From Trypanosoma brucei (lineage: Eukaryota), in the NCBI GenBank assembly GCA_000002445.1, contig CP000070.1, positions 1,024,001 through 1,088,000 of the forward strand: a stretch of DNA of 64,000 nt. The letters are read 5' to 3'. Position 1 is the stretch's first letter. Each line of letters starts with the position of its first letter. Below, piece by piece: positions 33,299 through 63,536 of the stretch. Under the pieces are notes generated by a model. It saw only the letters and a list, made by a program, of their open reading frames with translations, was not told the DNA's origin and did no database searches. A program made the translations under genes and the position numbers.

Positions 33299-34966
33299 AT
33301 GGTGTTAAAATTGTTGCTGGAGCTTGGAGCCGAGAGGTATGCGGAACAATTCGCCGCCAAATGCCATGAACTGGGGATGGTGATGAAGGAATCTGCAGGA
33401 CCCGGCAGAGTACCCGTTCCGGTGACGCTTCAGCCATCTATGATTTCTCGCGGTGAGTTTGGAACTCTCTGTTGTATGCAGCCGCTATGGAATGAGGCCG
33501 TCGACAATACAGCTAGAAACTTTACTTTCCTTCGTGATGCTTTGCAAGAGACGGCAGCCAGCGATGTCAACTTCACTGGGAAGCTCCTGAACATGCTCCA
33601 AGAGGTGTACCTCAGCGGAGGGCCGTTCCAACAGCTCATGCTCGGTATATTCCGCACAGATTACATGCGTGAAGGGGTTTATGATAAGATGCTGTCGACG
33701 ACGGCGTCTCGTTGGAAGAATGTTGAAATCAATACCATCAGCTGCTCTTTCGCCGGTCTATCGCCTCTCATCACTGAGTTTCATCAACACATCGCTGCGT
33801 ATCTTCAAGTGCTGCAGAAAGCAAGAGGAAAGGAGGATGATGACGGAGTTGAGAACATGAGTTGGATATGGGGTAAGGGCAACTGCAGATTGGAGAGAAG
33901 TGTCTCGGGTGATGTTGTACCAAAAGCAATAGCGGACGCAGTGCGTGCGTGGGTGGAGCAGCAGAAGTTTGCCTCACTTCGTGCGTCGTGGGAGCAGTTT
34001 CAACAGAATGAAGTAGGAAGCGGTGAAATACACCAACTTGGGGTGCTTGACACCGCGCCCGTTGTGCTCGTTGTTGTTCAGGAGAATGAACGTAACACTG
34101 CCGATCAGTATGCTCTGCTAATGAGAGTACTTGAGGAGCACCGCATTCGCTTCATATTTCGAACACTTCAGGAGCTCCACTTGTCACTGAAACTTCACAG
34201 CATCAGCCCCGAGCAACCACCTCTTGCTGTTGTTGACGGGCATTATCCGATAGCAGTTGCTTACTTCCGCAGCACCTACGTGCCGGAGGACTTCCCAACA
34301 GACGCCACATGGGCCGCTCGCCTTTCCTTGGAGCGCAGCAGCGCCATTAAGTGTCCAAGCATACCTTACCATTTGTTAACATTCAAGAAACTGCAACAAC
34401 TTCTGTGTGACGTGGATCGTGTGCTTGTACCAGTCGCTTTCTGTGGTGATTCGGATAAAGCAGGCTTGCTCCAGCGGCACTTCGTACCTCAATATTCTCT
34501 GAACCCGAAGGAAGTGGGTGAGGAAGCCGTGGAGAAAGTTATTCATGATGTACTTCAGCGGCCAGACCAATTTGTGTTAAAACCTCAGTTGGAGGGCGGT
34601 GGTAATCTTCTCTCTGGCGAGACGATGGTGAAGGCACTGAAGGCAACCAAGGAGGGGGATCCGGTTACGTACAGCAAGGTGCGTTGTGAGTACGTCGTCA
34701 TGTCGCGTATACAATTTCATGTCAGCACGGGGAGTTTGCTGGCGCGTGGTGACGTGGTTCAACTAGAGCGCAACATGTGTTCTGAAGTTGGCATTTTTGG
34801 CGTTATTCTCAGTGCTGCCAAGGGGTCAAGCGTAGGCACCAATGGTTCTTCAGTGCTTTTCAACACCTTTGCTGGATATACTGTTCGATCGAAACCTGCG
34901 GATGCGGATGATGGTGGCGTCATGGCAGGTGTTGCGGCTCTTGATTCCTTAGCGGTTGTACCGTAA
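33299..34966 (+). CDS. GS: eukaryotic glutathione synthetase (ATP-grasp)
   Basis: 555 aa. Gly-rich ATP-binding loop VLKPQLEGGGNLLSGETMVKALK (nt ~34573-34640) parallels VLKPQREGGGNN..GEEM in eukaryotic GSS. Overall length and the substrate-binding region (..AVVDGHYPIAVAYFRSTY..) fit the eukaryotic GSH synthetase family. Confidence 0.8.
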   Translation: MVLKLLLELGAERYAEQFAAKCHELGMVMKESAGPGRVPVPVTLQPSMISRGEFGTLCCMQPLWNEAVDNTARNFTFLRDALQETAASDVNFTGKLLNMLQEVYLSGGPFQQLMLGIFRTDYMREGVYDKMLSTTASRWKNVEINTISCSFAGLSPLITEFHQHIAAYLQVLQKARGKEDDDGVENMSWIWGKGNCRLERSVSGDVVPKAIADAVRAWVEQQKFASLRASWEQFQQNEVGSGEIHQLGVLDTAPVVLVVVQENERNTADQYALLMRVLEEHRIRFIFRTLQELHLSLKLHSISPEQPPLAVVDGHYPIAVAYFRSTYVPEDFPTDATWAARLSLERSSAIKCPSIPYHLLTFKKLQQLLCDVDRVLVPVAFCGDSDKAGLLQRHFVPQYSLNPKEVGEEAVEKVIHDVLQRPDQFVLKPQLEGGGNLLSGETMVKALKATKEGDPVTYSKVRCEYVVMSRIQFHVSTGSLLARGDVVQLERNMCSEVGIFGVILSAAKGSSVGTNGSSVLFNTFAGYTVRSKPADADDGGVMAGVAALDSLAVVP

Positions 34967-38388: not shown

Positions 38389-40629
38389 ATGTATACCAGT
38401 GTTAGAAAGCCTCCGCTTTCCACAGCGAAGCTTTCAGAGAAGACGGATGCTGCAGGCAAGGGTAACCTCAATGGAGTAGCTGAGTCACCGACATCGCGTG
38501 ACGGAGGGATTGGCAGCAGCATGCCGTACGTCGCCAGGAAACCCAACTCTGGTGATGGTCAGGGACGTCCAGGTGAGGTCCAGAGAGCAGGACAAGTAAC
38601 ATATCAAACAACTAACGCCCTTTTCACGGGAAGCACAGTTCCAGGAAAAACTAAGGACGTCAGCACCGCCAAAAGTAGTGGTGGAGGTGATCACCTTAAC
38701 AATGGAGACAGGCCTCCCCTTGTCGGCGACAACAATGAAGTAAGCTCGCCACGAACTATAAAAATGAACAGCTCTCCCCCTCGACGCTATTTTCACCGAG
38801 GGGCTATAAACTGCAACTCAAGCGAAAACGTGGCGGCGGTTCTCGGCGGTTCCACATTGATTAGCGGTGAGAGAGTAGGCAGTGGCTCTGGGTATCCACG
38901 CCGTGTTTTTTCAGGTCCACCTTCCACGCGGATGTTAAATCAAGGAGGTGAGGAGCCTGCACAGAAACCACAACCACCCGGAAGCAGCAGATCAAAGTCT
39001 GGCATAAGACAACTACAGTTCGCACTGAACGGCAACAGTAGCCAGCGTTTGCTACCCGTCCCCCCACGCCAACTGTGTCCCTCCAATCCAGCGCGACGTG
39101 GTGGTGGTGCCGCCACAGTGACCCCACGATGCTCTGACGCACGGCGGCAAAAGCAAGATTCGACGGATCCGTTTGACATGACTCAAGTTCTCAATGGTGT
39201 TGGCACTCAGTTGGGTCTCCCTTCTTACTGCCCGGGCGCCGAAAGCTCTCAAGGAAGCAACCGATTGAGGGGCTCGAAACCACCATCACCATCTTTATTG
39301 CCACTGGCGTCTCTGAGGTCGCAGCAAATGCCATCAACGGCGGGTGTACCCGCCCCACGGTCCCTCTCAGAGTCGCAGCAGCTGTCGATCAATCCTAGCG
39401 GGGTGTTTGGCTGCGCCACTGATTGCAAGAACGGGCTTGGTTACGACTTCCGTGTAGTGGCGAGCACAGGGAAATCTTTCAATTTACCAATCAAACTTAC
39501 CGCAGGCGTTGGTTGCGTGCAAGGCCTTCGACCAACAATGGAGGATGAACACTTCATCCGTCTGCAGGCAACTACAGCTGTGGGGCAGCCCGTGTCGCTG
39601 TTGGGTATTCTTGACGGCCACTGTGGCCGCCGTGTCGCGGAGTTGGCCGCAAAGCATGTACCAGACAACTTCATTGCCCACCCCGCACTCGGGGAAAATA
39701 ACGCACTAGCCTTTGTGGAGTCCATTATACAAGCAGACCGGGCGATTTTTCATTCAATAGGAAAAGGTAGCGGAGGTGTGGGACTTTCAGCTGGTTTTGG
39801 TGGCTCTGGAGGATCGACACTTATTGCCGCGGCAGTTCATGGACGAATGCTGTATGTTGCTTGTCTGGGGGATGCACGCGCTGTGCTTTATGATGGCAAT
39901 ACGACCATACCAATGAGTGAAGACCATAAACCCCTGAATAAAAAGGAACACACACGCATCCTTCAGTGTGGTGGCTTTGTACAGCTTGGTAGGGTTTGTG
40001 GTGTTCTTGCGGTGAGCCGCGCATTAGGCGATTACGAATTCAAGTTTAATGGGAATCGGTTTATATCTAATCGCGAACTGATGGTTTCTAATGTTGCCGA
40101 TGTGCGGCAGATTAACCTGACAGACTCTAGCAAGTTCCTTCTCCTGGCTTGCGACGGCCTGTGGGATGCGGTGCAGAACGAGGAGGCGACACAGTTCGTT
40201 CGTGACTTCCTAAGCTATACCCCTGACGTAGGTTCATCGCCGGAGGCCACTAAGCGGGCGATAAATAACTGTTGTCAAAAACTTGCTGAGTTTGCTGTCA
40301 GCCGCGGGAGTACGGATAACGTTTCGGTGATGCTATTGTTCTTTCACAACGTGGCCGATGTTGTCGCAAGTTTTGATCGTGCAAGCGACGCAACAACGTC
40401 GAGGGCGACGGTAACAAGCCCCGTTTCTCCACGGTTATTCAGTGCAAGCAGAGGTGTGAATGCCGGGTTCACAGGTATGGAATCGAGACTAGCCGGAATC
40501 TCTGGGGGTAGTAGTAGCGGTGCATTCGGCGGCAGTAGTGGAGCTGAGGGTTCTTCTGTCAGGGGAGCTGGTCGTACAAAAGTGGACAGAGGCGCCTCGT
40601 GGTTAACCCGGAGTCGCTCTCTGTGGTAA
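38389..40629 (+). CDS. protein phosphatase 2C (PPM family) with ~370-aa disordered N-terminal extension and ~90-aa Ser/Gly-rich C-terminal tail
   Basis: PP2C motifs in order: GLRPTMEDEHF (nt ~39521), LGILDGHCG, ACLGDARAVLY, SEDHKP, LAVSRALGDYEFK, LLLACDGLWDAV, GSTDNVSVMLLFF. The first ~370 aa are Ser/Pro/Gly/Asn-rich low complexity. Confidence 0.85.
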   Translation: MYTSVRKPPLSTAKLSEKTDAAGKGNLNGVAESPTSRDGGIGSSMPYVARKPNSGDGQGRPGEVQRAGQVTYQTTNALFTGSTVPGKTKDVSTAKSSGGGDHLNNGDRPPLVGDNNEVSSPRTIKMNSSPPRRYFHRGAINCNSSENVAAVLGGSTLISGERVGSGSGYPRRVFSGPPSTRMLNQGGEEPAQKPQPPGSSRSKSGIRQLQFALNGNSSQRLLPVPPRQLCPSNPARRGGGAATVTPRCSDARRQKQDSTDPFDMTQVLNGVGTQLGLPSYCPGAESSQGSNRLRGSKPPSPSLLPLASLRSQQMPSTAGVPAPRSLSESQQLSINPSGVFGCATDCKNGLGYDFRVVASTGKSFNLPIKLTAGVGCVQGLRPTMEDEHFIRLQATTAVGQPVSLLGILDGHCGRRVAELAAKHVPDNFIAHPALGENNALAFVESIIQADRAIFHSIGKGSGGVGLSAGFGGSGGSTLIAAAVHGRMLYVACLGDARAVLYDGNTTIPMSEDHKPLNKKEHTRILQCGGFVQLGRVCGVLAVSRALGDYEFKFNGNRFISNRELMVSNVADVRQINLTDSSKFLLLACDGLWDAVQNEEATQFVRDFLSYTPDVGSSPEATKRAINNCCQKLAEFAVSRGSTDNVSVMLLFFHNVADVVASFDRASDATTSRATVTSPVSPRLFSASRGVNAGFTGMESRLAGISGGSSSGAFGGSSGAEGSSVRGAGRTKVDRGASWLTRSRSLW

Positions 40630-53239: not shown

Positions 53240-53345
53240 GTTGCGTCGCCATGTCGAACTTAAACTATTATTATTATTATTTATTATTTTGCGCTAGTCC
53301 AAGTTTGCTTCCGCTTTTTTGTCCTTTTATTTACTTATTTGTTTA
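53240..53345 (+). promoter_or_regulatory. polypyrimidine tract / probable trans-splice acceptor region upstream of the CSB-like gene
   Basis: T/C-rich run (ttattattattatttattattttgcgctagtccaagtttgcttccgcttttttgtccttttatttacttatttgtttag) ends in AG dinucleotides 20-30 nt before the likely start Met. This is the canonical kinetoplastid SL-addition context. Confidence 0.45.
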
Positions 53346-56300
53346 GCGTCATTATCGTAGTTAAAGTGATGGCAGATGAACTCTCCCAGTTGGGTGTGAA
53401 TTGGGTAGAGGAATCTTTGCTCCGTCAAGATGTAGAGGCGAATGTGGAGGCACGAGCTGATGCCGCCGCAGCTGCGGATGAGGCTGAGCTGCAAAGGCGA
53501 TGGGCAGCACTGGAGGAGGTGGAGCGCACAGTGGCTAATATTCAAGAGCAACTTTCCAAAGTCGTTGCTCCTGTGGGCACGGCAGCTCACAAAATAGTCG
53601 AGGAGAAGGAAAGCGCTTCCGTGCTACAGTTCTCCCTGCTGAAGGCACAAAGAGAGTTGGAAAGTCGTGCGAAAGCGCTCCGCAGTTGGCAGATCGAATG
53701 CGAGGCACGCCAACGGCGGCGTGTGGAAGAGGCGAAACAGCGTAAGCAAGTGACTGAGCAGGAGGCAGTTATGGCCAGAATGCGGAATCGTTTGAGTCGT
53801 ACCCTCCAGCCGGTAGCGGACGTTCAAGGACTACAAGAGGGCGTAGGGAGTGCGGAGAGGGTTCCCGCGTCGACTAACCATCACGATTACCACGATCGCC
53901 TCACCACGGGCATGGGCTCGACACCTCAGGTGTGGTGGAATGGGAGAATAGGCACACCTAATGGAGCTGCAAGTGTGACTCACTCGAACATTTCAACGCC
54001 TTCGCGACGTCAACGCCTGTCATCGTCAACTTCTGCCGATGTGCCATTAACTCCTGCACAGTATTCCTGCGGCCCCGTTCTTCCATCAGCTTATCGAGTG
54101 ACGCTGACGCCAAGCGATGTCCGCTCCAAGTTGCAGAAATACGCAGATGACAGCGACTTAAGCATTTACAGCGCGCGGTGCCGCAAGCGGAAGCGGCTAG
54201 AAGGAGCTTTAGCGGGTCTAGCAGCGTTAGAAGCTGGAGTGGCCACTGCCAACGGCGAGATCAAGGAGGAGGATACCGATGAAGACTCGGGGGTTGTGGT
54301 GAAGTGTGAGGGTATTGGCATGAGTAGTTTCCCCAAAGTGAAGACAGAGGGTAGCGCACATGAGAAAAGTGGAACCTCATTGCTGGATGCCATAGATGTC
54401 GATGCGCTCATGGAGGAGTCTGATGATGTGGCTGTTGAAGTGCTCCAAAAAGTTAAGAAGGAAAAAAGGGCATCAGCAGGCGGTAGAAAGCACCGGGAGA
54501 GGGAAAATACCACGCAAAACTTTACGGACAGGCATGATTCCATTGAAGTCTTGCGTGGTATTTCTTTGGCATCATCCATTTATCAAAAATTGTTCGACCA
54601 CCAACGGGACGGATTGAGGTGGCTGCTGAATCTTCACCGACAGCGTGTCGGTGGGATTCTGGGAGATGACATGGGACTCGGGAAAACTATTCAAATAGCA
54701 GCCATGTTAAATGCCCTAAATCATTCCAACCAACTTCGTGGACCCTCTCTAATTGTTACACCGGTCACAGTGCTCCGTCAGTGGGTGGCAGAGATGCACC
54801 GATGGGCTCCATACGTGCGTACCTGTGTTATGCATGCCAGTAGTGCTTCCACTATTTCTCGCGAAAAGCTCATTGATTCGGTTCGAGGCACTCCAGCAGT
54901 GCTCTTAACAACCTATGCGGCCGTTCGTGAGCACTGCCGGTTGCTTCACAACGCATGTTTTCAGTATGTTATTCTTGACGAGGGGCACAAGATTAGCAAC
55001 CCGGAGGCTACTGTCACAATTGCTGCCAAGTCGTTTCCCACACCCCACCGGCTCATCCTCTCTGGAACCCCTGTGCAAAATACACTCAAGGAACTGTGGT
55101 GCCTGTTTGACTTCGTTAAACCAGGCCTACTGGGTACGTTGCGGAGGTTCGAGGAAGAGTTTGAGGTGCCAATCAACGCCAGTAAGAATATTCGGGCGTC
55201 ACCTCTCGCTTTGGCCACAGCCGCCGAGACTGCGCGGGTGCTGCACGAGAGCATCTCCCCGTTTTTACTACGTCGACTGAAGAAGCAAGTGATGAGCGAT
55301 TCTTTACCGGAGAAATACGAACGTGTTATTCGGTGCCCACTCAGTGATTCCCAATTAGAGGCGTATGTTGACCTCTTAAGTTCATCACGCGTGCAGAGGT
55401 TGATGAGTAACACCCTGTCATACACCCAGTTAATGGGTGGGTTGGACCGTGACGGGCGGGATGCAAGTGGTTGTCTGCACATCGCTGGCAAGCGGTTCCA
55501 GTTGATGCGTGATAAAGAAAACAAAGGCGTTGTTCGGCATGAGCTGTTTTGCGTGATGCACGAGTTGCGACAAATATGCAATCACGTGGATATCTTTCAC
55601 ATGCGACAAGCAAAGGACTTCAACTACACCGACGATATGGAAAACAACTTCTTTCTCGATGTTGTGAATGCCCCTACCGCCACTGCAAGGAAAGCGGGTG
55701 GAAAAGGCACGACACATTTTTCGATGCGCAGTAACAGGCCGGTAAATTATGAAGGTAGCAGTAAACTTCAAACTCTTAGACAGCTGCTGAAGTTGTGGCA
55801 ACGGGGTGGACAGCGTGCGCTGGTCTTCTCCCAGACGCGTGCCATGCTAGATATTATTGAAAATATGTGTGAACAAGAGAGCCTTACATATATCCGCATG
55901 GATGGTACCACCAATAGCTTACGACGGCAGGAACTCATGGATCGTTTCAACGAGGATGACAGAATCGTGGTGGCGCTGCTTACCACACGTGTGGGTGGCG
56001 TTGGGGTGAACTTAATTGGTGCTGACCGAGTTGTGATATTTGACCCTGACTGGAATCCGGTGACGGATGAGCAGGCGCGTGAGCGGGCGTGGCGAATTGG
56101 GCAAACACGCGATGTGGGTGTTTATCGTCTCATTTCTAGCGGAACAGTGGAGGAGGCGGTGTTGCGACGGCAACTTGCCAAGACGTATGTGACCGAGAAA
56201 GTTCTGCACGATCCAAAACTTCAACGTTTCTTCTACGAGCAAGGTAGTCTATCAGAGTCGTTCTACCTTGGCGTCGAGTATGACAGCCGGGTGCCACTAG

Positions 56301-56749
56301 GGAAGAAGCACATCGTCGCTGCACAAGAACTGTTTCCACTTTTAAAGGAAGAACACAATAATGAGGAGGTATTTGCGCTAACAGCGGTTGGGCATGAGCG
56401 GAGAATCCGAGGGACTGAGGAAGAATCAGGTGGGGCTTCTGTGAGGGCGAAGTCAGAAACAGAAAAAACTGCTGCTGCTTCCGTGTATCGGGTATGTGCT
56501 CCACGGGAGCTTTTTCCTTCTGCCACCACAACGTCACGAACATCTTCTTCCAACATATCTGAGACGTCATTGCTTCAGGATCTCGTTGACGGCAATCATG
56601 TGCGGATCTCTGGTGTTGACAGCACAGCACAGCGACTCGCGTGTACGTCAGCGTCCCATGCAATGTTGCGTGTGTCGAATGTCATCCGCACGTTCGAACA
56701 TCAGACACAAGAGGCATTTGCGAGGCTTCCCAGGGTGGAGGGATCGTAA
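53339..56749 (+). CDS. CSB: SNF2-family DNA-dependent ATPase of the ERCC6/CSB (Rad26) type
   Basis: LFDHQRDGLRWLLNLHRQRVGGILGDDMGLGKTIQ (Walker A at ~54662-54688) is near-identical in pattern to ERCC6 (LFKYQQTGVRWLWELH...GGILGDEMGLGKTIQ). Also present: DEGHKISN (DEGH box), LSGTPVQN, LLTTRVGGVGVNLIGADRVVIFDPDWNP and QARERAWRIGQTRDVGVYRLIS (motifs V and VI). An N-terminal coiled-coil/acidic region precedes the ATPase. The likely start is the Met at 53369 (MADELSQ). Confidence 0.85.
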   Translation: MFSVIIVVKVMADELSQLGVNWVEESLLRQDVEANVEARADAAAAADEAELQRRWAALEEVERTVANIQEQLSKVVAPVGTAAHKIVEEKESASVLQFSLLKAQRELESRAKALRSWQIECEARQRRRVEEAKQRKQVTEQEAVMARMRNRLSRTLQPVADVQGLQEGVGSAERVPASTNHHDYHDRLTTGMGSTPQVWWNGRIGTPNGAASVTHSNISTPSRRQRLSSSTSADVPLTPAQYSCGPVLPSAYRVTLTPSDVRSKLQKYADDSDLSIYSARCRKRKRLEGALAGLAALEAGVATANGEIKEEDTDEDSGVVVKCEGIGMSSFPKVKTEGSAHEKSGTSLLDAIDVDALMEESDDVAVEVLQKVKKEKRASAGGRKHRERENTTQNFTDRHDSIEVLRGISLASSIYQKLFDHQRDGLRWLLNLHRQRVGGILGDDMGLGKTIQIAAMLNALNHSNQLRGPSLIVTPVTVLRQWVAEMHRWAPYVRTCVMHASSASTISREKLIDSVRGTPAVLLTTYAAVREHCRLLHNACFQYVILDEGHKISNPEATVTIAAKSFPTPHRLILSGTPVQNTLKELWCLFDFVKPGLLGTLRRFEEEFEVPINASKNIRASPLALATAAETARVLHESISPFLLRRLKKQVMSDSLPEKYERVIRCPLSDSQLEAYVDLLSSSRVQRLMSNTLSYTQLMGGLDRDGRDASGCLHIAGKRFQLMRDKENKGVVRHELFCVMHELRQICNHVDIFHMRQAKDFNYTDDMENNFFLDVVNAPTATARKAGGKGTTHFSMRSNRPVNYEGSSKLQTLRQLLKLWQRGGQRALVFSQTRAMLDIIENMCEQESLTYIRMDGTTNSLRRQELMDRFNEDDRIVVALLTTRVGGVGVNLIGADRVVIFDPDWNPVTDEQARERAWRIGQTRDVGVYRLISSGTVEEAVLRRQLAKTYVTEKVLHDPKLQRFFYEQGSLSESFYLGVEYDSRVPLGKKHIVAAQELFPLLKEEHNNEEVFALTAVGHERRIRGTEEESGGASVRAKSETEKTAAASVYRVCAPRELFPSATTTSRTSSSNISETSLLQDLVDGNHVRISGVDSTAQRLACTSASHAMLRVSNVIRTFEHQTQEAFARLPRVEGS

Positions 56750-57317
56750 AGTGACCTTTTCCCCTTTTTTTAAAGAGGAAGTTTGCCCTGCTCGCATCCG
56801 TGCGTGCGTTTCGAAGCTTCATTGCACGGTGCTGTGGCGGATGACCATTGTTGACGGCCGCGTGGCGGTTGATTGTTTGAGAGAGGTGGCTTCCGCTATG
56901 ATCGGGGACGGGGAAAAAGTTGAGTGATGAACATATATATATATATATATGAAGTTATACCCGACCCCTTACAAGCTGAAGTGTGTACCGACGAGCGTCA
57001 GGACGTTTCCTTTGTAAACAGTTTTGTTTTCCCTTTCTTACTTCCAGTTTTTGTTACTATCATAACATTTCGTTGGAGCACTTACTCACAAACGCTTGCG
57101 AGCGGTAGATGCCCATGACCTTCATAAAGCGCATATGCTTACTTCTGTATGTACGTTTGGAGGTAACTTGTAGTAACTGTTTTGCTGTATTGTCATTGTG
57201 TGGTGTGTAGCGCAACGGATACTTTTGCTTTGCTTCCTTCTTTTTCTTTCTTTACTGCTGTTAGCTATAGAATTGCAACCCCCCCTTTCTCTTATTGGTT
57301 GCCTGTTTGGGGCGTCG

Positions 57318-57345
<28 letters not shown>
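57318..57345. repeat. (TA)14 microsatellite
   Basis: Seen directly in the CSB-kinase spacer. A second (TA)9 is at 56933-56951. Confidence 0.9.
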
Positions 57346-57350
<5 letters not shown>

Positions 57351-58424
57351 TGACCACTTCTGACAGGGGTGGTCGTCCGCACGTGAAAGGGGAGGGGCGG
57401 AACGCCTGCGTTACAACGGGTGTGAGATAGAAGAAAAGGCGAATAGGAGAAAAAAGGGCCGGGCGCCTCTTATGTATTGCCCACACAGGAACATTTAGAT
57501 CTGCCCGTTGTTTCACTAAGGAGAGAAAGCGTGGGGAGCCAAAAAGAAAAAAAATATTAAGAGAAGAGCCGCGCACCGAAATCAGCAGTACTAGAAGCGA
57601 AGAAGAAGGAGGTATCAAAAAAAAAAAACAAGAAATAAGAGAAAGGTAAATAAGGATAAAGGTGACGGAATACATAGAGGAGAGCGACGAGCAGTGTGAG
57701 GGACACACACGCGGTTGAACAGGAGAAGGAACGCAACGGATATCCGACGGGCCTCCACAAAAGAAATAATAAAAGAGGGGCTGAAGGGACCCACCGGTTC
57801 TCACAGCTTTCAATAGTTGTTTTTCTTCATTCTGGTTTGGAAGTGTCCGGTGGTTCACTGCTGTGTTTTGTCGAGTGTTGTTGTTATTTATATTCCCACT
57901 GTTACCGTCTATATATATATTCGCTTACTGTCTTTGTGCGGTGACTTAGTGGTGAGAAGATTGCATCATCATTATTATCACCATTATTGAGACTATTACG
58001 AGTATTGCGAATATTTATATTTTGGCACATCCCTTTTGAGTCCAAGAAAGGAGGAGGAAAAAAATAGAAAAAAACAGAAAAAATCGCATCAACTGATTTC
58101 TTCCATTGCTGCGATAGTAATAACCATATTTGGTGGCACCGTTGACGTGTTCTTTTCAGTTTTTTCATTCACCCTTTTGGGCTTCTGGGTGGCGTCTATC
58201 CAAGGTATTTAAATATTTTTTTCCCTCTTTGTTTCTTGTTTCTTTCCACCTTTTTTTGGTTTTTTTTGCGCGGGGTCTCTGTCCCACACCGACGCATACA
58301 CGCACTAAAAAAAACAAAAAGATCCCCATTTCACCGTTGAAGGAGGTGAAGGCACACAAAAAATAAAAATAAAAGGGAGAGAGAAGGGTTATTGCTTCAA
58401 TAATCGGAAGGGTTGATTGCACTC

Positions 58425-58500
58425 CGCCCACCAACCAATCTCATTTTTTTTTATTTGTGTTTTGTACTTGACTACTATTTTTTTTTGTGTGTGTGTGCGT
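58425..58500 (+). promoter_or_regulatory. polypyrimidine tract upstream of the DYRK-like kinase gene
   Basis: ctcattttttttttatttgtgttttgtacttgactactatttttttttgtgtgtgtgtgcg, followed by AG acceptors before 58592/58655. Confidence 0.4.
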
Positions 58501-58591
58501 GTATTTGTGAGGAACTGTGTGCCACTTAACTTGGAACGGAGGTGAGCGGGAGAGCGAGAGAGAGAGAGAGAGAGTCTCTCTGTGACTGTCT

Positions 58592-60727
58592 GTGTGTCTG
58601 AAAGAGGAATTTGCTTTAGTGGGTTTGAGCGCTGAGGAATCCATTTCCCCCAAAATGCAACAACAACAGCAGCAGCCATCACAAACCGCAGAGGCCAGTC
58701 GTAGCCGCCAGTGTAGCAGTTCGTTTGGGAGGCCATGTGTTGCTCTTTCATGGAATATCATGCAATTATACAAACGCATCAATAGCAAACTTTGTGAGGA
58801 GATGCGACGGCGCCCCACACGGTCCAGATGTAACGATGGCTACGATGACAAACATGGTCACTATTTTATGTACACAGGTGAGGAAATATGGGGACGGTAC
58901 ACCGTATTAGGTGCATTGGGACGTGGCAGCTTTGGAACTGTGCTGAGATGCTTTGACGAGAAGCATCAGGAACAGGTGGCGGTGAAGGTGGTTCGGAATG
59001 GGGATTACTTTCGTGCGCAAGGTCTGATAGAGGTGGACATCGTTTCGCGGTTAAATAACATTCCTGCATTAGACAATTTGGTTGTGCGGTTGAGAAAGGT
59101 GTTCATGTGGAAGAATCATTTGGTACTGGTGTTTGAGATGTTAAGCATGAATCTCTTCCAGTTAATCCAACGAACGAACTATAATGGTGTCAGTCTTGAC
59201 CTAACCAGAAAGTTTGCCTACCAGCTGGTGCTTGTGCTGAAGCAGTTAGAGGAGCATGATCCACCGATAATTCACAGTGACGTAAAGCCTGAGAATGTCG
59301 TTCTTCGGGACGCAAGTCGCAGTAGCATTCGCCTTATTGATTTTGGAAGCGCCTGCTTCATGAGGCAAGGAGCAACACTATACAAGTACGTGCAGTCTCG
59401 TTTCTACCGTAGTGTTGAAGTTATATTAGAACTTAACTACGACACAGCCATCGATAGATGGTCCCTTGGTTGCATGCTCGTTGAGCTTCACACCGGTGTG
59501 CCACTGTTTCCGGGCAAAACAGAAGTTGATCAAATTGCACGCTTTACCGGCGTCCTCGGGCCGATACCCGACGATATGATCGAGCGCAGTGGGAAGAAGG
59601 ATATATTTTTTCACGACAGTAGACAATCGCAACAACAACATCCACTGGGAACGGGTTGCCCTCCAGAAGATACCCCTGAGGAAGAGACATTACCCGCGGT
59701 TGGGCAGCGTCAGGAGGTTGTAGCATCACCATCACCAGTTATAGCTGCCGATGTGCTTCACAGTCTCTCAGCCGCATCGTCCGTATCTGCTGTGACAGCG
59801 ACGTCGGGTCCGCAAGGGGCTTGCAGTAGTGGTGTTCCTGCAACTTCCGGGCCTTCCCCCACATGCACGACGGCTGCTTCTTTGAGTGGTCGAATTGTTA
59901 CAAGAAACGCTACATGTGTGCCATGCAGTAGCACCTTAGGGATGTCTTGCCAAGGTGGTAGTGGCGCTAGCAATAACAACATTGCGAGTACCAAGGGGAC
60001 CTCAGCATCGGCCACTTCTGCAGCGCGTCGCCCAATGACTGCTGTTAACATGACTTCCTCGGGTAAGAAAGGTGGTGCCGCACCGTCAACTGCAATGACG
60101 GGTGCAAGTCGGGGTTTGTCATCGACCCCTTCAGCGTATAAGATGCGTTTCCCCTCCTCGAATAGTTTAAAACCTCAGTCGAAGTCCCCATCTACCAGCA
60201 ACGTAGGCGTCGCAAATGCCAACACAGCTGTGGACAGTGGTGGAGGAAACAGCAATGCAACTGAAAATGCAGGCCATTCCACAGCTGTGGTTTCTTCCCG
60301 TGCCCCCGCGTGGTCCCGCCCATCCAATTCAACTCCAAAGCTACGGCCGGCAGCGGGCGTGCCGGGAAGTGGAACGGGACCTCTTTTTGGTACTTCCACT
60401 TTGCCACAGGGTCGAGTTACCGCTCCGCAGCAGATGGAGGCAACAACGGCGAAGAGCCCGTTTACACTTCGGGTTCCTCCGACTCCCGAACAATGTCAGA
60501 GTCTCGCTGATATTATTGGTGTTTACACGGGAGGGCCACGAGGTTGTCGTCGTGGTCAAGCAGGACATGATGTTAGTGACTACCTGGTGTTTTTAGACTT
60601 TATCCAGCGGCTACTCTGCTATGACCCAAAGGAGCGTTTGAGCTGCGCTGATGCATTAAGACATCCTTTCTTATCAGCTTTAGAGGTGCAAAGGCAGTGG
60701 AAGTATTTGGGCGTTGGTTCCTCTTAG
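58592..60727 (+). CDS. CMGC protein kinase, DYRK-like, with poly-Gln N-terminus and a large low-complexity insert inside the kinase domain
   Basis: Gly loop LGRGSFGTV and VAIK-like AVKVV. Catalytic loop HSDVKPENVVL; DFGSAC. Activation segment YKYVQSRFYRSVEVIL with the DYRK-type Y-x-Y and SRFYRSPE-like signature. WSLGCMLVELHTGVPLFPG. The likely start is the Met at 58655 (MQQQQQQPSQ). Confidence 0.8.
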   Translation: MCLKEEFALVGLSAEESISPKMQQQQQQPSQTAEASRSRQCSSSFGRPCVALSWNIMQLYKRINSKLCEEMRRRPTRSRCNDGYDDKHGHYFMYTGEEIWGRYTVLGALGRGSFGTVLRCFDEKHQEQVAVKVVRNGDYFRAQGLIEVDIVSRLNNIPALDNLVVRLRKVFMWKNHLVLVFEMLSMNLFQLIQRTNYNGVSLDLTRKFAYQLVLVLKQLEEHDPPIIHSDVKPENVVLRDASRSSIRLIDFGSACFMRQGATLYKYVQSRFYRSVEVILELNYDTAIDRWSLGCMLVELHTGVPLFPGKTEVDQIARFTGVLGPIPDDMIERSGKKDIFFHDSRQSQQQHPLGTGCPPEDTPEEETLPAVGQRQEVVASPSPVIAADVLHSLSAASSVSAVTATSGPQGACSSGVPATSGPSPTCTTAASLSGRIVTRNATCVPCSSTLGMSCQGGSGASNNNIASTKGTSASATSAARRPMTAVNMTSSGKKGGAAPSTAMTGASRGLSSTPSAYKMRFPSSNSLKPQSKSPSTSNVGVANANTAVDSGGGNSNATENAGHSTAVVSSRAPAWSRPSNSTPKLRPAAGVPGSGTGPLFGTSTLPQGRVTAPQQMEATTAKSPFTLRVPPTPEQCQSLADIIGVYTGGPRGCRRGQAGHDVSDYLVFLDFIQRLLCYDPKERLSCADALRHPFLSALEVQRQWKYLGVGSS

Positions 60728-62033
60728 TGGTGGAACACGGTTGTAGGTTCTAATACGCACATATATAGACATATATATATATATATATATATTGTACACA
60801 CCATTTTGTGGTCGGTTTTTTCCATTTTTTTTTTTAAAATGCGTGTGTTACCGGTGTGACTTTGGTGGAAGGAACTCACTAAAGGCAGTATCAGCTGGTA
60901 TATCGATAGATGAACGTGTGTGTGCGTGTGGGAAACAAGCGTTATATCGTCATGAATGAATGCATGTCCGCGGTTGCGCGTGTAATTGTGTCTGTGGGTC
61001 TGTTGGCTCACTTAATGAAGCACGGGGAGAGTCTTAGCGAAGCGGAATGGAGGAGGATGAGGAGGGTAAGGTTGGTAATTCTCATTTCTTTGTTGTTTTT
61101 GCCTTACTTCAAAAAGAAAAAAAAACTCCTTGCCTCTAAATTGGCGTTGGAAATACTGGTACTCGTTATATTGAGGGCGATGGCATGCCGTGGGAATGGT
61201 TTCGACGTGACTTGGTGGTCCAATTGCGGTTTTTGTTATTTATCACGGTGGTGAGGCTTTGTTCCTGCTTTGTCCCTGAAATTTTCCCCAAATTCTTTTT
61301 GTTTGTTTAGTGTTTCTGCGATTATTTGTCCCCGAATGTGCGCGCTTCTTTTGTTCCCCCTTTGTTTTTGAAAATAATTTCCCTCTTTTTTTTGTTTTTA
61401 CCTCGCGTGCGTGACCTCGTTCTTTGTTTGTACCGCTTGAATTATTAGTTACCTTCGTCACGCGATGCTCGCGTATGAGGGAAGGAGGGAAAGGGGAAGC
61501 AGAGGATTTCACTCCTTGTGTTATTGCTGTTATCAAGGAAAGCGCCTTCACCTACGTTTAGGAACGCATATTTTGTGGGGTCAAATAGTCCCTACCGCAA
61601 GGACTTTACAATTCATCCTTTTTGTTTTCTTTCCACTTATTTGCCTTCCATCTCTTTTTTTTTTTTACCTTCTTATTTCCATCTATATTTGTTGAATTGT
61701 GTTAGGTTTTACCTTTCCTCCATATGCCTTCCCGTCTACTTCATGTTCCATTTACGTACCCACTTTCAGTGTGCAACTGAGTTGCGACGTCGTGTAGAGC
61801 TACTTTGTTTGTGGCTTCAATGATTTTGCGCTTTCTTCAAAAAAAATAAATAAATAAAGAACTTGAAAAAAAAGGAAAGAAAAGAGTTGTTTTCATTGGT
61901 ACATTCGTTTCTTCCTTTTTTATCTTTTTCCCTTCTCATCCTTGACTCAAGGTAAACACCGTCCGTTACTGTGCTGAGAAGCGTTTTCTGCTAACTCGTT
62001 GTGTCAACGACACCCTAAACCCGCAGGAATTTC

Positions 62034-63536
62034 ATGGCAACTGAGGTGAAGCCAGCAGGTTCCACCTTGGAGTTCCTCGTTGGAGAAAACAATGAACAAC
62101 AGTTATGGGCGGAAGTGTATACGCGGCAATTTCCCACTGATGATGAGTTTGAGTGCCTCACAGCAGAGGAGCAGGGGGAACTTTTGGCGGAGCTGCGTGA
62201 GGAAGTGGAACTGTTGGATGTAGAGGCGGGTATGATGCAGAGGCATGCGGAGTCATTGCGCCTCACTCGGAGTACTGCGCCCACTACAAACGTGAGCAGC
62301 GCTCGGCGGTCGCTGATGGCATTTGTGTCGGGTGGTACCGGCAACCTCAGCGAAGAAGCGACTCCCGGTGACTCTGCCGCAGTTAACCAGTCAGACGACT
62401 GGTCGGAACAGCAAGTGGCGGCAGCAGCAACGGGCAGTGGTGTACTTAATACAACATCCACAGGTTCAACACGCCGCGGGCAGCCTTACAGCCGTAAGTT
62501 GGCAGATGCAAAGGATGCGTACGTAGTGCTTGAGGATCGAGTTGCCATGCTCACCAAGGAAAGAGAGCGGATGAAGCAACAGAAGGACAAGGAGGAGCGT
62601 GACAATGATCATTTGCGTGACTTGTTCCGTGCCACCGTGGAAGAGGCGGTGAATCGTATGAAGGAGCTACGTTTAGAGGAGCTGCAGTTTAATCGTGAGG
62701 TTATCTGCGAGGCAACTGGTACGGCGTCGGCTGATGACTTGTTGCGGTATATGAACAATCGCCACGGTGCCCAGGGAAAATATTTAGATAAGCTTAATGC
62801 GCAGTGTGCCGCTGCTGAAAGGAGCATCCTACAGCACCAGCGGAATTTGAAGCAGCGGCGTGCTGCCGGTGAGGCGTTTCATGCTATTGACTTTGAGCAG
62901 TTGCGTATTGAAAATCAGAAGTTTGTGGAAAGAATTGAACGGAAAAATTTAGAGTTAGTTGAGCTCAAAGGGACTTCCACCCGGACGGTACAGACCTTGA
63001 ATAACCTTATGGACACTCTTAATGGGCTCACTTCGGAGCAGAGTCGTCTGCGGAAGGATTACAAAAACCGATGTGAATATTTGGCTAGACTGAAAAGAGA
63101 GATGGTGTCTGTTGCCCAAGAAGCAAAAGTGGCTGAGCAGAAGAACACGGCGATTAAACTCCGTCATGAAGCGGTGCGTGTTCCAAAAATTGAAAACTAC
63201 ATGGCTCAAAAGGCAGAAGAGTATGAATTGCGGAAGGCTCAGCGTAACTGGCAGCGAAAGGTGGAGATTGCAGAGGGGCAGTTGGGACTGATGAAGCAGC
63301 AGATACGTGTGCTGGTTAATGCAACGGATGCCCAACGAAGACGTAAGAGACTTTTGGCACATCAACGCTCAACAGCGTCAACCAAGCATTCGGTCCATGG
63401 CAGGAGGACTAGCGTAAGTGGAGAGACGCGGACTGCCAACTTTGCCTGCCCTGACGGCACCATTGACGTTCAAGTGCAACAGGAGCCAGTCGTGGGAGGA
63501 AGCAAAGGTCTTTTGGACATGAAGAGAAGGCAATAG
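62034..63536 (+). CDS. hypothetical coiled-coil protein (500 aa)
   Basis: ORF on the coding strand. Residues ~150-430 are heptad-like and rich in E/K/R/Q/L (KERERMKQQKDKEERDNDHLRDL..., IENQKFVERIERKNLELVELK..). No enzymatic motif. Confidence 0.55.
   Translation: MATEVKPAGSTLEFLVGENNEQQLWAEVYTRQFPTDDEFECLTAEEQGELLAELREEVELLDVEAGMMQRHAESLRLTRSTAPTTNVSSARRSLMAFVSGGTGNLSEEATPGDSAAVNQSDDWSEQQVAAAATGSGVLNTTSTGSTRRGQPYSRKLADAKDAYVVLEDRVAMLTKERERMKQQKDKEERDNDHLRDLFRATVEEAVNRMKELRLEELQFNREVICEATGTASADDLLRYMNNRHGAQGKYLDKLNAQCAAAERSILQHQRNLKQRRAAGEAFHAIDFEQLRIENQKFVERIERKNLELVELKGTSTRTVQTLNNLMDTLNGLTSEQSRLRKDYKNRCEYLARLKREMVSVAQEAKVAEQKNTAIKLRHEAVRVPKIENYMAQKAEEYELRKAQRNWQRKVEIAEGQLGLMKQQIRVLVNATDAQRRRKRLLAHQRSTASTKHSVHGRRTSVSGETRTANFACPDGTIDVQVQQEPVVGGSKGLLDMKRRQ

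What the first reader, a model, noticed from the sequence alone, without database searches (positions are those of the whole stretch)
59630..60575. ~300-residue low-complexity insert inside the catalytic domain of the DYRK-like kinase
Kinase subdomains I-X run contiguously up to ...FPGKTEVDQIARFTGVLGPIPDDMIERSGKKDIFF. They are then interrupted by ~310 residues rich in Ser/Thr/Ala/Gly/Pro (TSGPSPTCTTAASLSG..., SKSPSTSNVGVANANTAVDSGGGNSNA...). Subdomain XI (DYLVFLDFIQRLLCYDPKERLSCADALRHPFL) resumes just before the stop. An insert between the CMGC insert/subdomain X and XI of this size is unusual. It is likely a regulatory or phospho-acceptor platform, or a localisation module. An N-terminal Q7 tract is also present.
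Basis: seen in the sequence. Interest (0 to 1): 0.5.

Follow-up and report, generated by a model that had tools for sequence, protein, structure and literature searches.

The report
Disordered loop insert in trypanosome DYRK kinase
A Trypanosoma brucei DYRK1-type protein kinase (Tb927.7.4090) carries a real, roughly 290-residue floppy loop inside its catalytic domain; the loop is mostly fast-evolving filler but holds a few short motifs conserved across the genus, and it is an undescribed example of a familiar kind of feature in parasite kinases.

Summary
The gene (window 58655..60727, +, 690 aa) is Tb927.7.4090, a class-1 DYRK paralogue. Against human DYRK1A, 290 residues (aa 321-610, nt 59615-60484) replace about 20.

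The site is the tip of the beta-hairpin inside the CMGC insert.

AlphaFold closes the kinase fold across the insert (pLDDT at least 90 on both sides, below 50 for aa 347-588). The model matches DYRK1A crystal structures at TM 0.88-0.92. The insert is no artefact: several Trypanozoon records and every Trypanosoma orthologue found keep the frame.

The expansion belongs to one orthogroup. It measures 305-376 aa in Trypanosoma, 98-132 in named Leishmaniinae, and 37-39 in Bodo and the DYRK1 paralogue. About 22% lies in genus-conserved islands, including a Ser-rich 28-mer and an RRPxT[A/T] site that fits the DYRK1A substrate consensus. The rest drifts.

My best reading is a disordered tether that displays regulatory short motifs. 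A largely neutral expansion is the main rival. Function is untested and I found no phosphosite in the insert. This is a new member of a known kind, of modest interest.

The parts
58655..60727 (+). Coding sequence of Tb927.7.4090, a class-1 DYRK paralogue (690 aa plus stop)
   Evidence: ORF. Identical to XP_067081384. Gene ID from neighbours GSH2 Tb927.7.4000, CSB Tb927.7.4080 and Tb927.7.4100, and from published RNAi primers.
58658..58675 (+). N-terminal Q6 tract, polymorphic (Q9 in T. b. gambiense and in a Logan assembly)
58730..58864 (+). Conserved N-terminal helix (RPxVALSxxIMxLY) and DH box (NDGYDDKHGHY, aa 60-70)
   Evidence: Alignment A1. Aligned to DYRK1A from the DH box onwards. AlphaFold helices 27-32 and 35-52.
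58898..59614 (+). Kinase domain from subdomain I to alpha-G and the first hairpin strand (aa 82-320). Includes K111, E126, HSD 207-209, DFG 229-231 and YKY 243-245.
   Evidence: Pfam PF00069, E 2.8e-46. DYRK1A alignment. pLDDT 93-98.
59615..60484 (+). The insert: aa 321-610, 290 aa in place of about 20 aa of DYRK1A hairpin loop
59693..60418 (+). Segment predicted disordered (aa 347-588, pLDDT below 50)
59714..59809 (+). Conserved island 1 (aa 354-385): EVVASPSPVIAADVLHSLSAASSVSAVTATSG. Found only in Trypanosoma orthologues. A weak helix is predicted at aa 365-373.
60026..60070 (+). Conserved RRPxT[A/T] site (R458-A463; T462 as putative acceptor) followed by KK at 471-472. It fits the DYRK1A consensus: R at P-3, P at P-2, small residue at P+1.
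60332..60349 (+). Weaker conserved proline-basic motif TPKLRP (consensus P[KR]x[KR][LP])
60452..60505 (+). Junction motif KSPFTLRVPPTPEQCQSL. It forms the second hairpin strand (aa 603-605) and is conserved in the whole orthogroup, including Leishmaniinae (SPFFLR).
60485..60676 (+). Distal CMGC insert (GGPRGCRRGQAGH) plus alpha-H and alpha-I, i.e. subdomain XI with invariant R661 (aa 611-674)
59871..60386 (+). Amplicon of the published Tb927.7.4090 RNAi construct (Jones et al. 2014, primers TLO171/172). It lies wholly inside the insert.

Best explanation
The feature is a genuine, translated expansion of one surface loop. That loop is the tip of the beta-hairpin in the CMGC insert of Tb927.7.4090. 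This kinase is the second class-1 DYRK paralogue of trypanosomatids and the positional orthologue of the L. major chromosome 14 gene, probably LmjF/LmxM.14.0830.

Shown here:
- The two halves of the kinase fold pack normally around the insert.
- The insert itself is predicted to be disordered.
- The loop was already enlarged in the trypanosomatid members of this orthogroup and is largest in the genus Trypanosoma.
- About four fifths of it evolves fast, through substitutions and homopolymer runs.
- About one fifth consists of short motifs that are invariant or nearly so across the genus.

Inferred:
- The loop acts as a flexible tether that displays short linear motifs.
- The RRPxT[A/T] element matches the substrate preference of DYRK1A, and three of the four residues that form the DYRK1A P-3 arginine pocket are identical in this kinase.
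- It is therefore most likely phosphorylated by the kinase itself (in cis or in trans) or by a related kinase. Phosphorylation would switch partner binding, localisation or activity.
- The Ser-rich amphipathic island is most likely a docking element.
- Catalysis itself should not need the variable spacer.
For: Real and in frame:
- The same ORF is present in several Trypanozoon records and five Logan read-set assemblies.
- Orthologues in nine further Trypanosoma taxa all return in frame to the conserved C-lobe despite different insert lengths.
- There are no stops in 870 nt, against 3-12 in the other frames.

Position and fold:
- DYRK1A aligns on both sides.
- AlphaFold gives pLDDT of at least 90 for about aa 40-330 and 600-680, with strands 319-321 and 603-605.
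- Foldseek matches DYRK1A at TM 0.88-0.92, normalised to the target, with alignments spanning about 620 columns.

Disorder: pLDDT is below 50 for aa 347-588, and Pfam finds no domain there.

Lineage pattern:
- The distance between anchors is 305-376 aa in Trypanosoma and 98-132 in named Leishmaniinae. It reaches 244 in unnamed relatives that also carry the activation-loop insert. It is 37-39 in Bodo and in the DYRK1 paralogue.
- The tree and synteny define the orthogroup.

Constraint:
- Mean identity is 0.40 in the insert against 0.79 in the core, with islands at aa 321-329, 354-385, 455-465 and 599-610.
- Between two T. brucei-group alleles the insert has 10 nonsynonymous and 7 synonymous changes, and the core has 0 and 5 (Fisher p = 0.04). 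Only one change touches an island.

Consensus fit:
- DYRK1A prefers Arg at P-3 and small aliphatic residues at P+1, and its consensus peptide is RARPGTPALRE.
- DYRK1A autophosphorylates its own hairpin (LPDGpTWNLK) in vitro.

Precedent: all three kinase-core inserts of TbDYRK are needed for activity.
Against: - No phosphosite in the insert was found. Jones et al. list the protein as not known to be phosphorylated. The Benz and Urbaniak tables held here show only pS232, although those files were truncated.
- AlphaFold gives no confident contact between any island and the core.
- Leishmaniinae orthologues lack island 1 and the RRPxT site, so these motifs are not needed for the ancestral function.
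- Most of the insert looks close to neutral.
- P+1 is Ala or Thr, not the preferred Pro.
- RNAi in culture gave little or no growth defect, so any role may be subtle or stage-specific.
Confidence: 0.55

Rival explanations
1. The insert is essentially neutral filler. A permissive surface loop accumulated low-complexity sequence by slippage and drift. The conserved islands only reflect structural needs near the hairpin base, or slow decay, and have no regulatory role.
For: - 78% of the insert is unconserved, with mean identity 0.40.
- Loop length varies from 305 to 376 aa within the genus and from 98 to 244 outside it.
- Orthologues carry homopolymer runs of N, Q, G, T and H at differing positions.
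- Nonsynonymous changes accumulate only in the insert between close alleles.
- No structure is predicted.
- Parsons et al. removed insertions larger than 25 aa from the kinase-domain alignments before building trees.
Against: - Island 1 and RRPxT lie 30-140 residues from either hairpin strand, so fold requirements cannot explain them.
- They contain residues that are invariant across all the aligned species while the flanks are scrambled.
- The nonsynonymous-to-synonymous count in the insert (10:7) is below the roughly 3:1 expected under neutrality. This is only a rough reading of small numbers.
Confidence: 0.3
2. The insert is a localisation device. The conserved RR-X11-KK pattern around aa 458-472, or island 1, targets the kinase to a compartment, for example the nucleus or the basal body.
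For: - The L. mexicana gene LmxM.14.0830 localises to the basal body and could not be deleted. I infer that it is the orthologue. That inference rests on the synteny of the L. major gene and on the gene number.
- The two basic clusters are conserved with fixed spacing in the eight aligned species.
- From my own knowledge, not checked here: DYRK1A is reported to carry a second nuclear localisation signal between subdomains X and XI, which is the same hairpin (Alvarez et al. 2003).
Against: - The Leishmania orthologue, whose localisation is the one that is known, lacks both motifs.
- The second basic cluster has only 2-3 basic residues.
- I had no localisation data for the T. brucei protein.
Confidence: 0.1
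3. The insert is an artefact or is not part of the protein. It could be an assembly or frameshift error, an unrecognised intron, or a fusion of two genes.
For: None found. The only annotation discrepancy concerns the start codon (655 against 690 aa), not the insert.
Against: - The ORF is identical or nearly so in independent records and read-set assemblies.
- The frame is kept in all orthologues despite differing lengths.
- Peptide motifs are conserved inside the insert.
- The C-terminal third of the kinase fold would be missing without read-through.
- From general knowledge: cis-splicing is almost absent in trypanosomes.
Confidence: 0.02

Closest known systems
Human DYRK1A (CMGC insert with beta-hairpin)
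   Same: It is the best structural and sequence match (305 bits; TM 0.88-0.92). Shared features are the DH box, the YxY activation loop, most of the P-3 Arg pocket (E213, Y251, E277) and the distal CMGC insert GGPxGxR. DYRK1A autophosphorylates in the same hairpin and at the DFG+1 Ser, and the T. brucei protein is phosphorylated at the equivalent S232.
   Different: The hairpin loop is about 20 aa in DYRK1A and 290 aa here. The trypanosome protein has HSD instead of HCD and SVE instead of SPE. It has Phe in place of pocket residue Tyr246. It has short N- and C-terminal tails and lacks the PEST and His-rich C-terminus.
TbDYRK (Tb927.10.15020) kinase-core inserts
   Same: It is a T. brucei DYRK-family kinase whose catalytic core is interrupted by lineage-specific inserts of 36, 22 and 119 aa. 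[quoted passage not shown] All three are required for activity.
   Different: It belongs to a different DYRK subfamily (a divergent DYRK2-like group). It has three shorter inserts, and I could not determine their positions relative to the CMGC hairpin. It also has a DFS motif and HxY. No experiments exist for Tb927.7.4090.
Leishmaniinae orthologues (L. major chr 14 gene P0051; probably LmjF/LmxM.14.0830)
   Same: They are positional orthologues with the gene order SNF2 - kinase - CCDC113-like. They form one clade with the window gene. They are enlarged at the same loop and share the SPFxLR junction motif.
   Different: The loop is only 98-132 aa and lacks island 1 and RRPxT. They carry an extra insert in the activation segment between DFG and the activation-loop Tyr, 104-140 aa in the named species and 78-204 in all relatives. 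They also have very long N-termini.
SRPK spacer insert and Plasmodium kinase low-complexity inserts (from general knowledge, not tested here)
   Same: These are CMGC or parasite kinases whose catalytic core is split by a long disordered spacer. The spacer does not prevent folding and, in SRPK1, governs localisation.
   Different: The SRPK spacer sits between the lobes (subdomains VIb/VII), not in the CMGC-insert hairpin. There is no sequence relationship.

Membership tests
DYRK family, class 1 (DYRK1) | Complete protein kinase catalytic residues (VAIK Lys, alpha-C Glu, HxD, Asn, DFG, subdomain XI Arg) | tested here: met
   K111, E126, H207/D209, N214, D229-G231, E255 and R661 are present and invariant or nearly invariant in 83 homologues. 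Pfam Pkinase E 2.8e-46.
DYRK family, class 1 (DYRK1) | DH box (DDxxxxY-type motif) just upstream of the kinase domain | tested here: met
   NDGYDDKHGHY (aa 60-70) aligns to NDGYDDDNYDY of DYRK1A.
DYRK family, class 1 (DYRK1) | YxY motif in the activation loop, with the second Tyr as autophosphorylation site | tested here: met
   Y243-K244-Y245 is followed by VQSRFYRS, and Y245 is invariant. Phosphorylation itself cannot be tested here.
DYRK family, class 1 (DYRK1) | Closer to DYRK1A/1B than to DYRK2-4, HIPK, PRP4 or CLK | tested here: met
   phmmer scores: DYRK1A 305 bits, DYRK1B 288, DYRK3 234, DYRK2 231, HIPK2 182, PRP4 174, CLK 162 or less.
DYRK family, class 1 (DYRK1) | CMGC insert between alpha-G and alpha-H, with the canonical short beta-hairpin | tested here: inconclusive
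   Both hairpin strands and the distal half of the insert are present. However, the hairpin loop is 290 aa instead of about 20, so the architecture is kept but strongly modified.
DYRK family, class 1 (DYRK1) | Co-translational tyrosine autophosphorylation followed by Ser/Thr kinase activity | not testable with these tools
   Needs biochemistry.
Folded accessory domain inserted in a kinase | Confidently predicted tertiary structure, or homology to a known domain | tested here: not met
   pLDDT is below 50 for aa 347-588. Pfam finds no family other than the kinase. The island profile finds only the same orthogroup among 1.84 billion representatives.
SRPK-type spacer insert | Spacer located between subdomains VIb and VII, separating the two lobes | tested here: not met
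   Here the core is contiguous from subdomain I to alpha-G. The insert lies in the C-lobe CMGC insert.
Phospho-regulated short linear motif (DYRK consensus RPx[S/T][P/A/V]) | Sequence match that is conserved among orthologues within a disordered region | tested here: met
   RRPxT[A/T] is invariant at R, R, P and T in eight aligned species, within disordered sequence. Consensus taken.
Phospho-regulated short linear motif (DYRK consensus RPx[S/T][P/A/V]) | Observed phosphorylation of the site | tested here: inconclusive
   No insert phosphosite appears in the supplementary tables held here. Those tables were truncated.

The most novel reading that the evidence does not exclude
The genus-conserved RRPxT[A/T] element is a tethered pseudo-substrate or autophosphorylation switch built into the CMGC-insert hairpin. 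When unphosphorylated it would occupy the kinase's own substrate groove. Phosphorylation of T462 would release it and expose the neighbouring Ser-rich island or basic clusters for partner binding or relocalisation. That would be a Trypanosoma-specific autoregulatory mode for a DYRK1-type kinase. I know of no equivalent in other DYRKs.
Probability: 0.12. Interest if true: 0.5.

Novelty: new member of a known kind. Interest (0 to 1): 0.27.

Why it matters
The Leishmania gene that is probably the orthologue (LmxM.14.0830) could not be deleted and localises to the basal body. A parasite-specific regulatory loop would offer a handle for dissecting the kinase, or for targeting it selectively, that human DYRK1A lacks.

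There are also practical points:
- The published kinome-wide RNAi construct for this gene targets only the insert.
- The GenBank TREU927 gene model is probably truncated at the N-terminus.
- Kinase-domain alignments or HMM hits for this protein will report a partial domain unless the insert is spliced out. Pfam stops at position 205 of its 263-position model.

Beyond that, this is one more instance of the known tendency of trypanosomatid kinases to carry long disordered inserts.

Tried and rejected
1. Gene identity. I first considered Tb927.7.3880. I rejected it because its reported mass (87 kDa) and phosphosite (Ser13) do not fit this protein. Neighbouring genes and RNAi primers identify Tb927.7.4090.

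2. Word-indexed search of the 5.8-billion-protein set with the island profile. It returned nothing, not even the proteins the profile was built from. Local hmmsearch finds those at E of 3.5e-13 or better. I therefore treat the negative as uninformative.

3. Exhaustive HMMER search with the island profile. It found only the same orthogroup plus one chance match to an animal protocadherin. The island is not a shared module.

4. Phosphoproteome look-ups. The Cayla 2020 supplements do not list the gene. The Benz and Urbaniak 2019 tables list only pS232. Urbaniak 2013 is not held.

5. Tandem repeats. None lie in the insert, so it is not a repeat array.

6. Role of the hairpin in DYRK1A. The structure paper says little beyond naming the CMGC-specific insert.

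7. Intein or folded domain. No supporting features were found.
Full report
**What is at the coordinates**

A single open reading frame spans 58592-60727 on the + strand. Its first ATG is at 58655, giving a 690-aa protein that begins MQQQQQQPSQ. The protein is identical to T. equiperdum XP_067081384. It also contains the 655-aa T. brucei TREU927 protein XP_846032 exactly; that model simply starts at Met36. The longest contig carrying the TREU927 protein is 2.2 Mb, consistent with chromosome 7.

The neighbours are:
- glutathione synthetase, window 33299-34966 (GSH2 = Tb927.7.4000);
- an SNF2 helicase, window 53339-56749 (TbCSB = Tb927.7.4080);
- a 500-aa CCDC113/CCDC96 (DUF4201) protein, window 62034-63536 (Tb927.7.4100).

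The gene-specific parts of the Tb927.7.4090 RNAi primers published by Jones et al. 2014 match uniquely at 59871-59890 (+) and 60367-60386 (-). The gene is therefore Tb927.7.4090, annotated CMGC/DYRK. I first suspected Tb927.7.3880, but its reported mass (87 kDa) and phosphosite (Ser13) do not fit.

**Checking the observation**

- Pfam reports only the kinase domain, and the match stops at position 205 of the 263-position model.
- phmmer against all PDB chains puts human DYRK1A first (E 8.8e-90). The alignment comes in two blocks. In 690-aa numbering, aa 53-320 match DYRK1A chain residues 8-274 and aa 611-674 match residues 295-358.
- 290 residues (aa 321-610, nt 59615-60484) therefore stand where DYRK1A has 20.
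At the 3' end it runs about 30 residues into sequence that aligns well with DYRK1A (PEQCQSLADIIGVYTGGPRGCRRGQAGH against [27 protein letters not shown]).
- The insert is 62% S+T+A+G+P, against 25% in the core. Its entropy is somewhat lower (3.73 against 4.15 bits) and it has a net positive charge (21 K+R against 11 D+E).
- It is not a tandem repeat.
- The coding frame has no stop in 870 nt, while the other five frames have 3-12.
- The glutamine tract is Q6, not Q7.

**Artefact or real?**

The same ORF, with only point differences and a Q6/Q9 polymorphism, occurs in T. b. brucei TREU927, T. b. gambiense DAL972, two T. equiperdum records and five Logan read-set assemblies. Orthologues were found in nine further taxa: T. 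vivax, T. cruzi, T. c. marinkellei, T. conorhini, T. rangeli, T. grayi, T. melophagium and T. theileri among the named ones. All have an insert at the same place. Its length differs between species, and each returns in frame to the conserved C-lobe. A frameshift, a misassembly, a gene fusion or an intron is therefore excluded for practical purposes.

**Where exactly the insert sits**

The conserved sequence stops at ...SGKKDIFFH and resumes at KSPFTLRVPPTPEQCQSLADIIGVYTGGPRGCRRGQAGHDVSDY. The second segment is the distal half of the CMGC insert. Helices alpha-H and alpha-I (subdomain XI) follow it, including Arg661, which is invariant in 83 homologues.

AlphaFold2 was run with an 83-sequence alignment. 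It gives pLDDT of at least 90 for about aa 40-330 and 600-680. It predicts short strands at 319-321 and 603-605, and pLDDT below 50 for aa 347-575 and 577-588. Foldseek against the PDB returns DYRK1A structures only at the top. TM-scores are 0.88-0.92 when normalised to the target, and the alignments span about 620 columns, that is, across the insert.

The fold therefore closes. The insert is an expansion of the tip of the beta-hairpin inside the CMGC insert. It is not an insertion between the CMGC insert and subdomain XI. Only a nine-residue helix (aa 365-373) is predicted within it, at low confidence.

**Evolutionary pattern**

Kinetoplastids have two class-1 DYRK paralogues.
- Family B is the gene called DYRK1 in the literature (Tb927.5.1650; LinJ.15.0180-like). 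It has a long N-terminus and a normal hairpin.
- Family A contains the window gene.

The L. major member of family A (P0051, 990 aa) lies on chromosome 14 between an SNF2 helicase and a CCDC113-like gene. This is the same order as in the window, so it is the positional orthologue. It is very probably LmjF.14.0830. The review literature calls LmxM.14.0830 the closest homologue of DYRK1, refractory to deletion and localised at the basal body. I inferred this gene-number assignment and did not check it.

Distance between two fixed anchors (LGPxPxxM and GGPRG):

| Group | Distance (aa) |
|---|---|
| Bodo saltans and family B | 37-39 |
| Non-expanded homologues in the hit list | 36-48 |
| Named family A Leishmaniinae | 98-132 |
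| Unnamed relatives that also have the activation-loop insert | up to 244 |
| Trypanosoma | 305-376 |

The non-Trypanosoma members of family A carry a second insert of 78-204 aa. It lies between DFG and the activation-loop tyrosine, and Trypanosoma lacks it.

**Is the insert constrained?**

Across eight Trypanosoma species, mean identity to the T. brucei residue is 0.40 in the insert and 0.79 in the core. Conservation is concentrated in four islands that make up 22% of the insert:
1. aa 321-329, next to the first strand.
2. aa 354-385, EVVASPSPVIAADVLHSLSAASSVSAVTATSG, with 15 invariant positions.
3. aa 455-465, containing RRPxT[A/T]. A KK pair follows 8-9 residues later.
4. aa 599-610, KSPFTLRVPP, the second strand. 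This one is shared with Leishmaniinae as SPFFLR.

A weaker P[KR]x[KR][LP] motif lies near aa 561-565.

In an exhaustive HMMER scan of 1.84 billion representatives it finds only that orthogroup, plus a chance hit to a protocadherin.

Between the window allele and a gambiense-like allele (Logan ERR7929164), the insert has 10 nonsynonymous and 7 synonymous differences. The 332-codon core has 0 and 5 (Fisher p = 0.04). Only one of the ten replacements touches an island. With roughly three nonsynonymous sites per synonymous site, this suggests relaxed but not absent constraint. The counts are small and I offer this only as a rough reading.

In other species the variable parts contain runs of N, Q, G, T, H or A at differing positions. 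This points to slippage-driven turnover.

**How it most likely works**

Shown: the insert is a disordered surface loop that does not disturb the fold and carries a few strongly conserved short motifs. Everything below is inferred.

- RRPxT[A/T] has Arg at P-3 and Pro at P-2. It has a small residue at P+1.
- DYRK1A prefers Arg at P-3 (bound by Glu291, Tyr327, Tyr246 and Glu353) and small aliphatic residues, not only Pro, at P+1. Its consensus peptide is RARPGTPALRE.
- Three of the four pocket residues are identical here (E213, Y251, E277). The fourth, Tyr246, is Phe168 (alignment; A1).
- DYRK1A autophosphorylates in vitro at LPDGpTWNLK, in the very hairpin that is expanded here. It also autophosphorylates at the DFG+1 serine (IVDFGpSSCQLGQR).
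- The T. brucei protein is phosphorylated in vivo at the equivalent S232, and that site changes about four-fold over the cell cycle.

I therefore consider it most likely that the loop is a tether carrying a self- or DYRK-type phosphorylation site together with a docking element (island 2). These would modulate partner binding, localisation or activity.

The closest experimental precedent is TbDYRK (Tb927.10.15020). All three of its kinase-core inserts are required for activity.

Evidence against:
- I found no phosphosite in the insert (the tables were truncated).
- AlphaFold shows no docking of any island onto the core.
- The Leishmaniinae orthologues lack both genus-specific motifs.
- RNAi gave no growth defect in the kinome screen (Alamar blue ratios 0.99 and 0.98). 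The genome-wide RIT-seq screen recorded loss of fitness only at day 6 in bloodstream forms.

**Rivals**

The main rival is that the loop is mostly neutral filler at a permissive site. This is surely true of about four fifths of it. It does not explain invariant motifs far from the hairpin base.

A localisation-signal reading (the RR-X11-KK pattern) is compatible with the data. It would echo a second nuclear localisation signal reported for DYRK1A between subdomains X and XI. That is my recollection of Alvarez et al. 2003, which I could not verify.

The evidence contradicts both the artefact reading and the folded-domain reading.

**Comparison with what is known, and novelty**

By every sequence criterion I could test, the protein is a class-1 DYRK: catalytic residues, DH box, YxY, and best match to DYRK1A and DYRK1B. 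The one modification is a greatly enlarged hairpin loop.

Long inserts in trypanosomatid kinase domains are a recognised phenomenon. Parsons et al. removed insertions larger than 25 aa before building trees. Cayla et al. analysed three inserts in TbDYRK. I found no paper that describes this particular insert or its motifs.

I rate it as a new member of a known kind, of modest interest. The most novel reading still open is a tethered pseudo-substrate or autophosphorylation switch in the CMGC hairpin. I give that about 12%.

Noticed in passing
window 58655-58762: The GenBank TREU927 model (XP_846032, 655 aa) starts at Met36. The upstream 35 codons include RPCVALSWNIM, which matches the RPxVALSxxIM motif conserved in the T. 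cruzi-clade, T. theileri-group, Leishmaniinae, Bodo and DYRK1-paralogue sequences, and AlphaFold places them in a helix. The phosphosite numbering S232 in Benz and Urbaniak 2019 fits the 690-aa model. Polypyrimidine tracts followed by AG lie upstream, at about 58443-58515. The 655-aa model is probably truncated at the N-terminus.
   Followed up: partly
window 58658-58675: The glutamine tract is Q6 here, not Q7. It is Q9 in T. b. gambiense, a T. b. equiperdum record and the Logan assemblies, so it is a polymorphic CAA/CAG microsatellite inside the coding sequence.
   Followed up: yes
window 59276-59278 (Ser208): The catalytic loop reads HSD instead of the DYRK-typical HCD in T. brucei and T. 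vivax. The other Trypanosoma species, Leishmaniinae, Bodo and the DYRK1 paralogue keep HCD.
   Followed up: no
window 59414-59416 (Val254): The P+1/APE-equivalent motif is SVE in T. brucei and T. cruzi, SLE in T. vivax and SAE in T. grayi. Leishmaniinae, Bodo, the paralogue and human DYRK1A all have SPE.
   Followed up: no
window 59348-59350 (Ser232, DFG+1): Published phosphoproteomics lists pS232 (LIDFGpSACFMR), which changes about four-fold across the cell cycle. It is the positional equivalent of the DYRK1A in vitro autophosphorylation site in IVDFGpSSCQLGQR.
   Followed up: partly
L002:11843-12217 (L. major P0051 aa 615-739): Leishmaniinae orthologues carry a 104-140 aa low-complexity insert in the activation segment, between DFG and the activation-loop tyrosine (78-204 aa when unnamed relatives are included). 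The first Tyr of YxY is replaced (PKY). This is arguably stranger than the CMGC-loop insert, because it separates DFG from the activation loop. Trypanosoma lacks it.
   Followed up: partly
window 59871-60386: The RNAi fragment used for Tb927.7.4090 in the kinome-wide screen of Jones et al. 2014 lies entirely within the insert.
   Followed up: yes
window 53339-63536 and L002:4225-16160: The gene order SNF2/CSB helicase - DYRK paralogue - CCDC113/CCDC96-like coiled-coil protein is conserved between T. brucei chromosome 7 and L. major chromosome 14.
   Followed up: yes
window 58550-58574 and 60761-60792: Dinucleotide microsatellites flank the gene: (GA)12.5 about 80 nt upstream of the ATG, and (AT)16 about 35 nt after the stop codon.
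   Followed up: no
window 38389-40629: A 746-aa ORF with a C-terminal PP2C phosphatase domain (aa 373-645) and a long N-terminal region with no Pfam match lies upstream in the same transcription direction.
   Followed up: no
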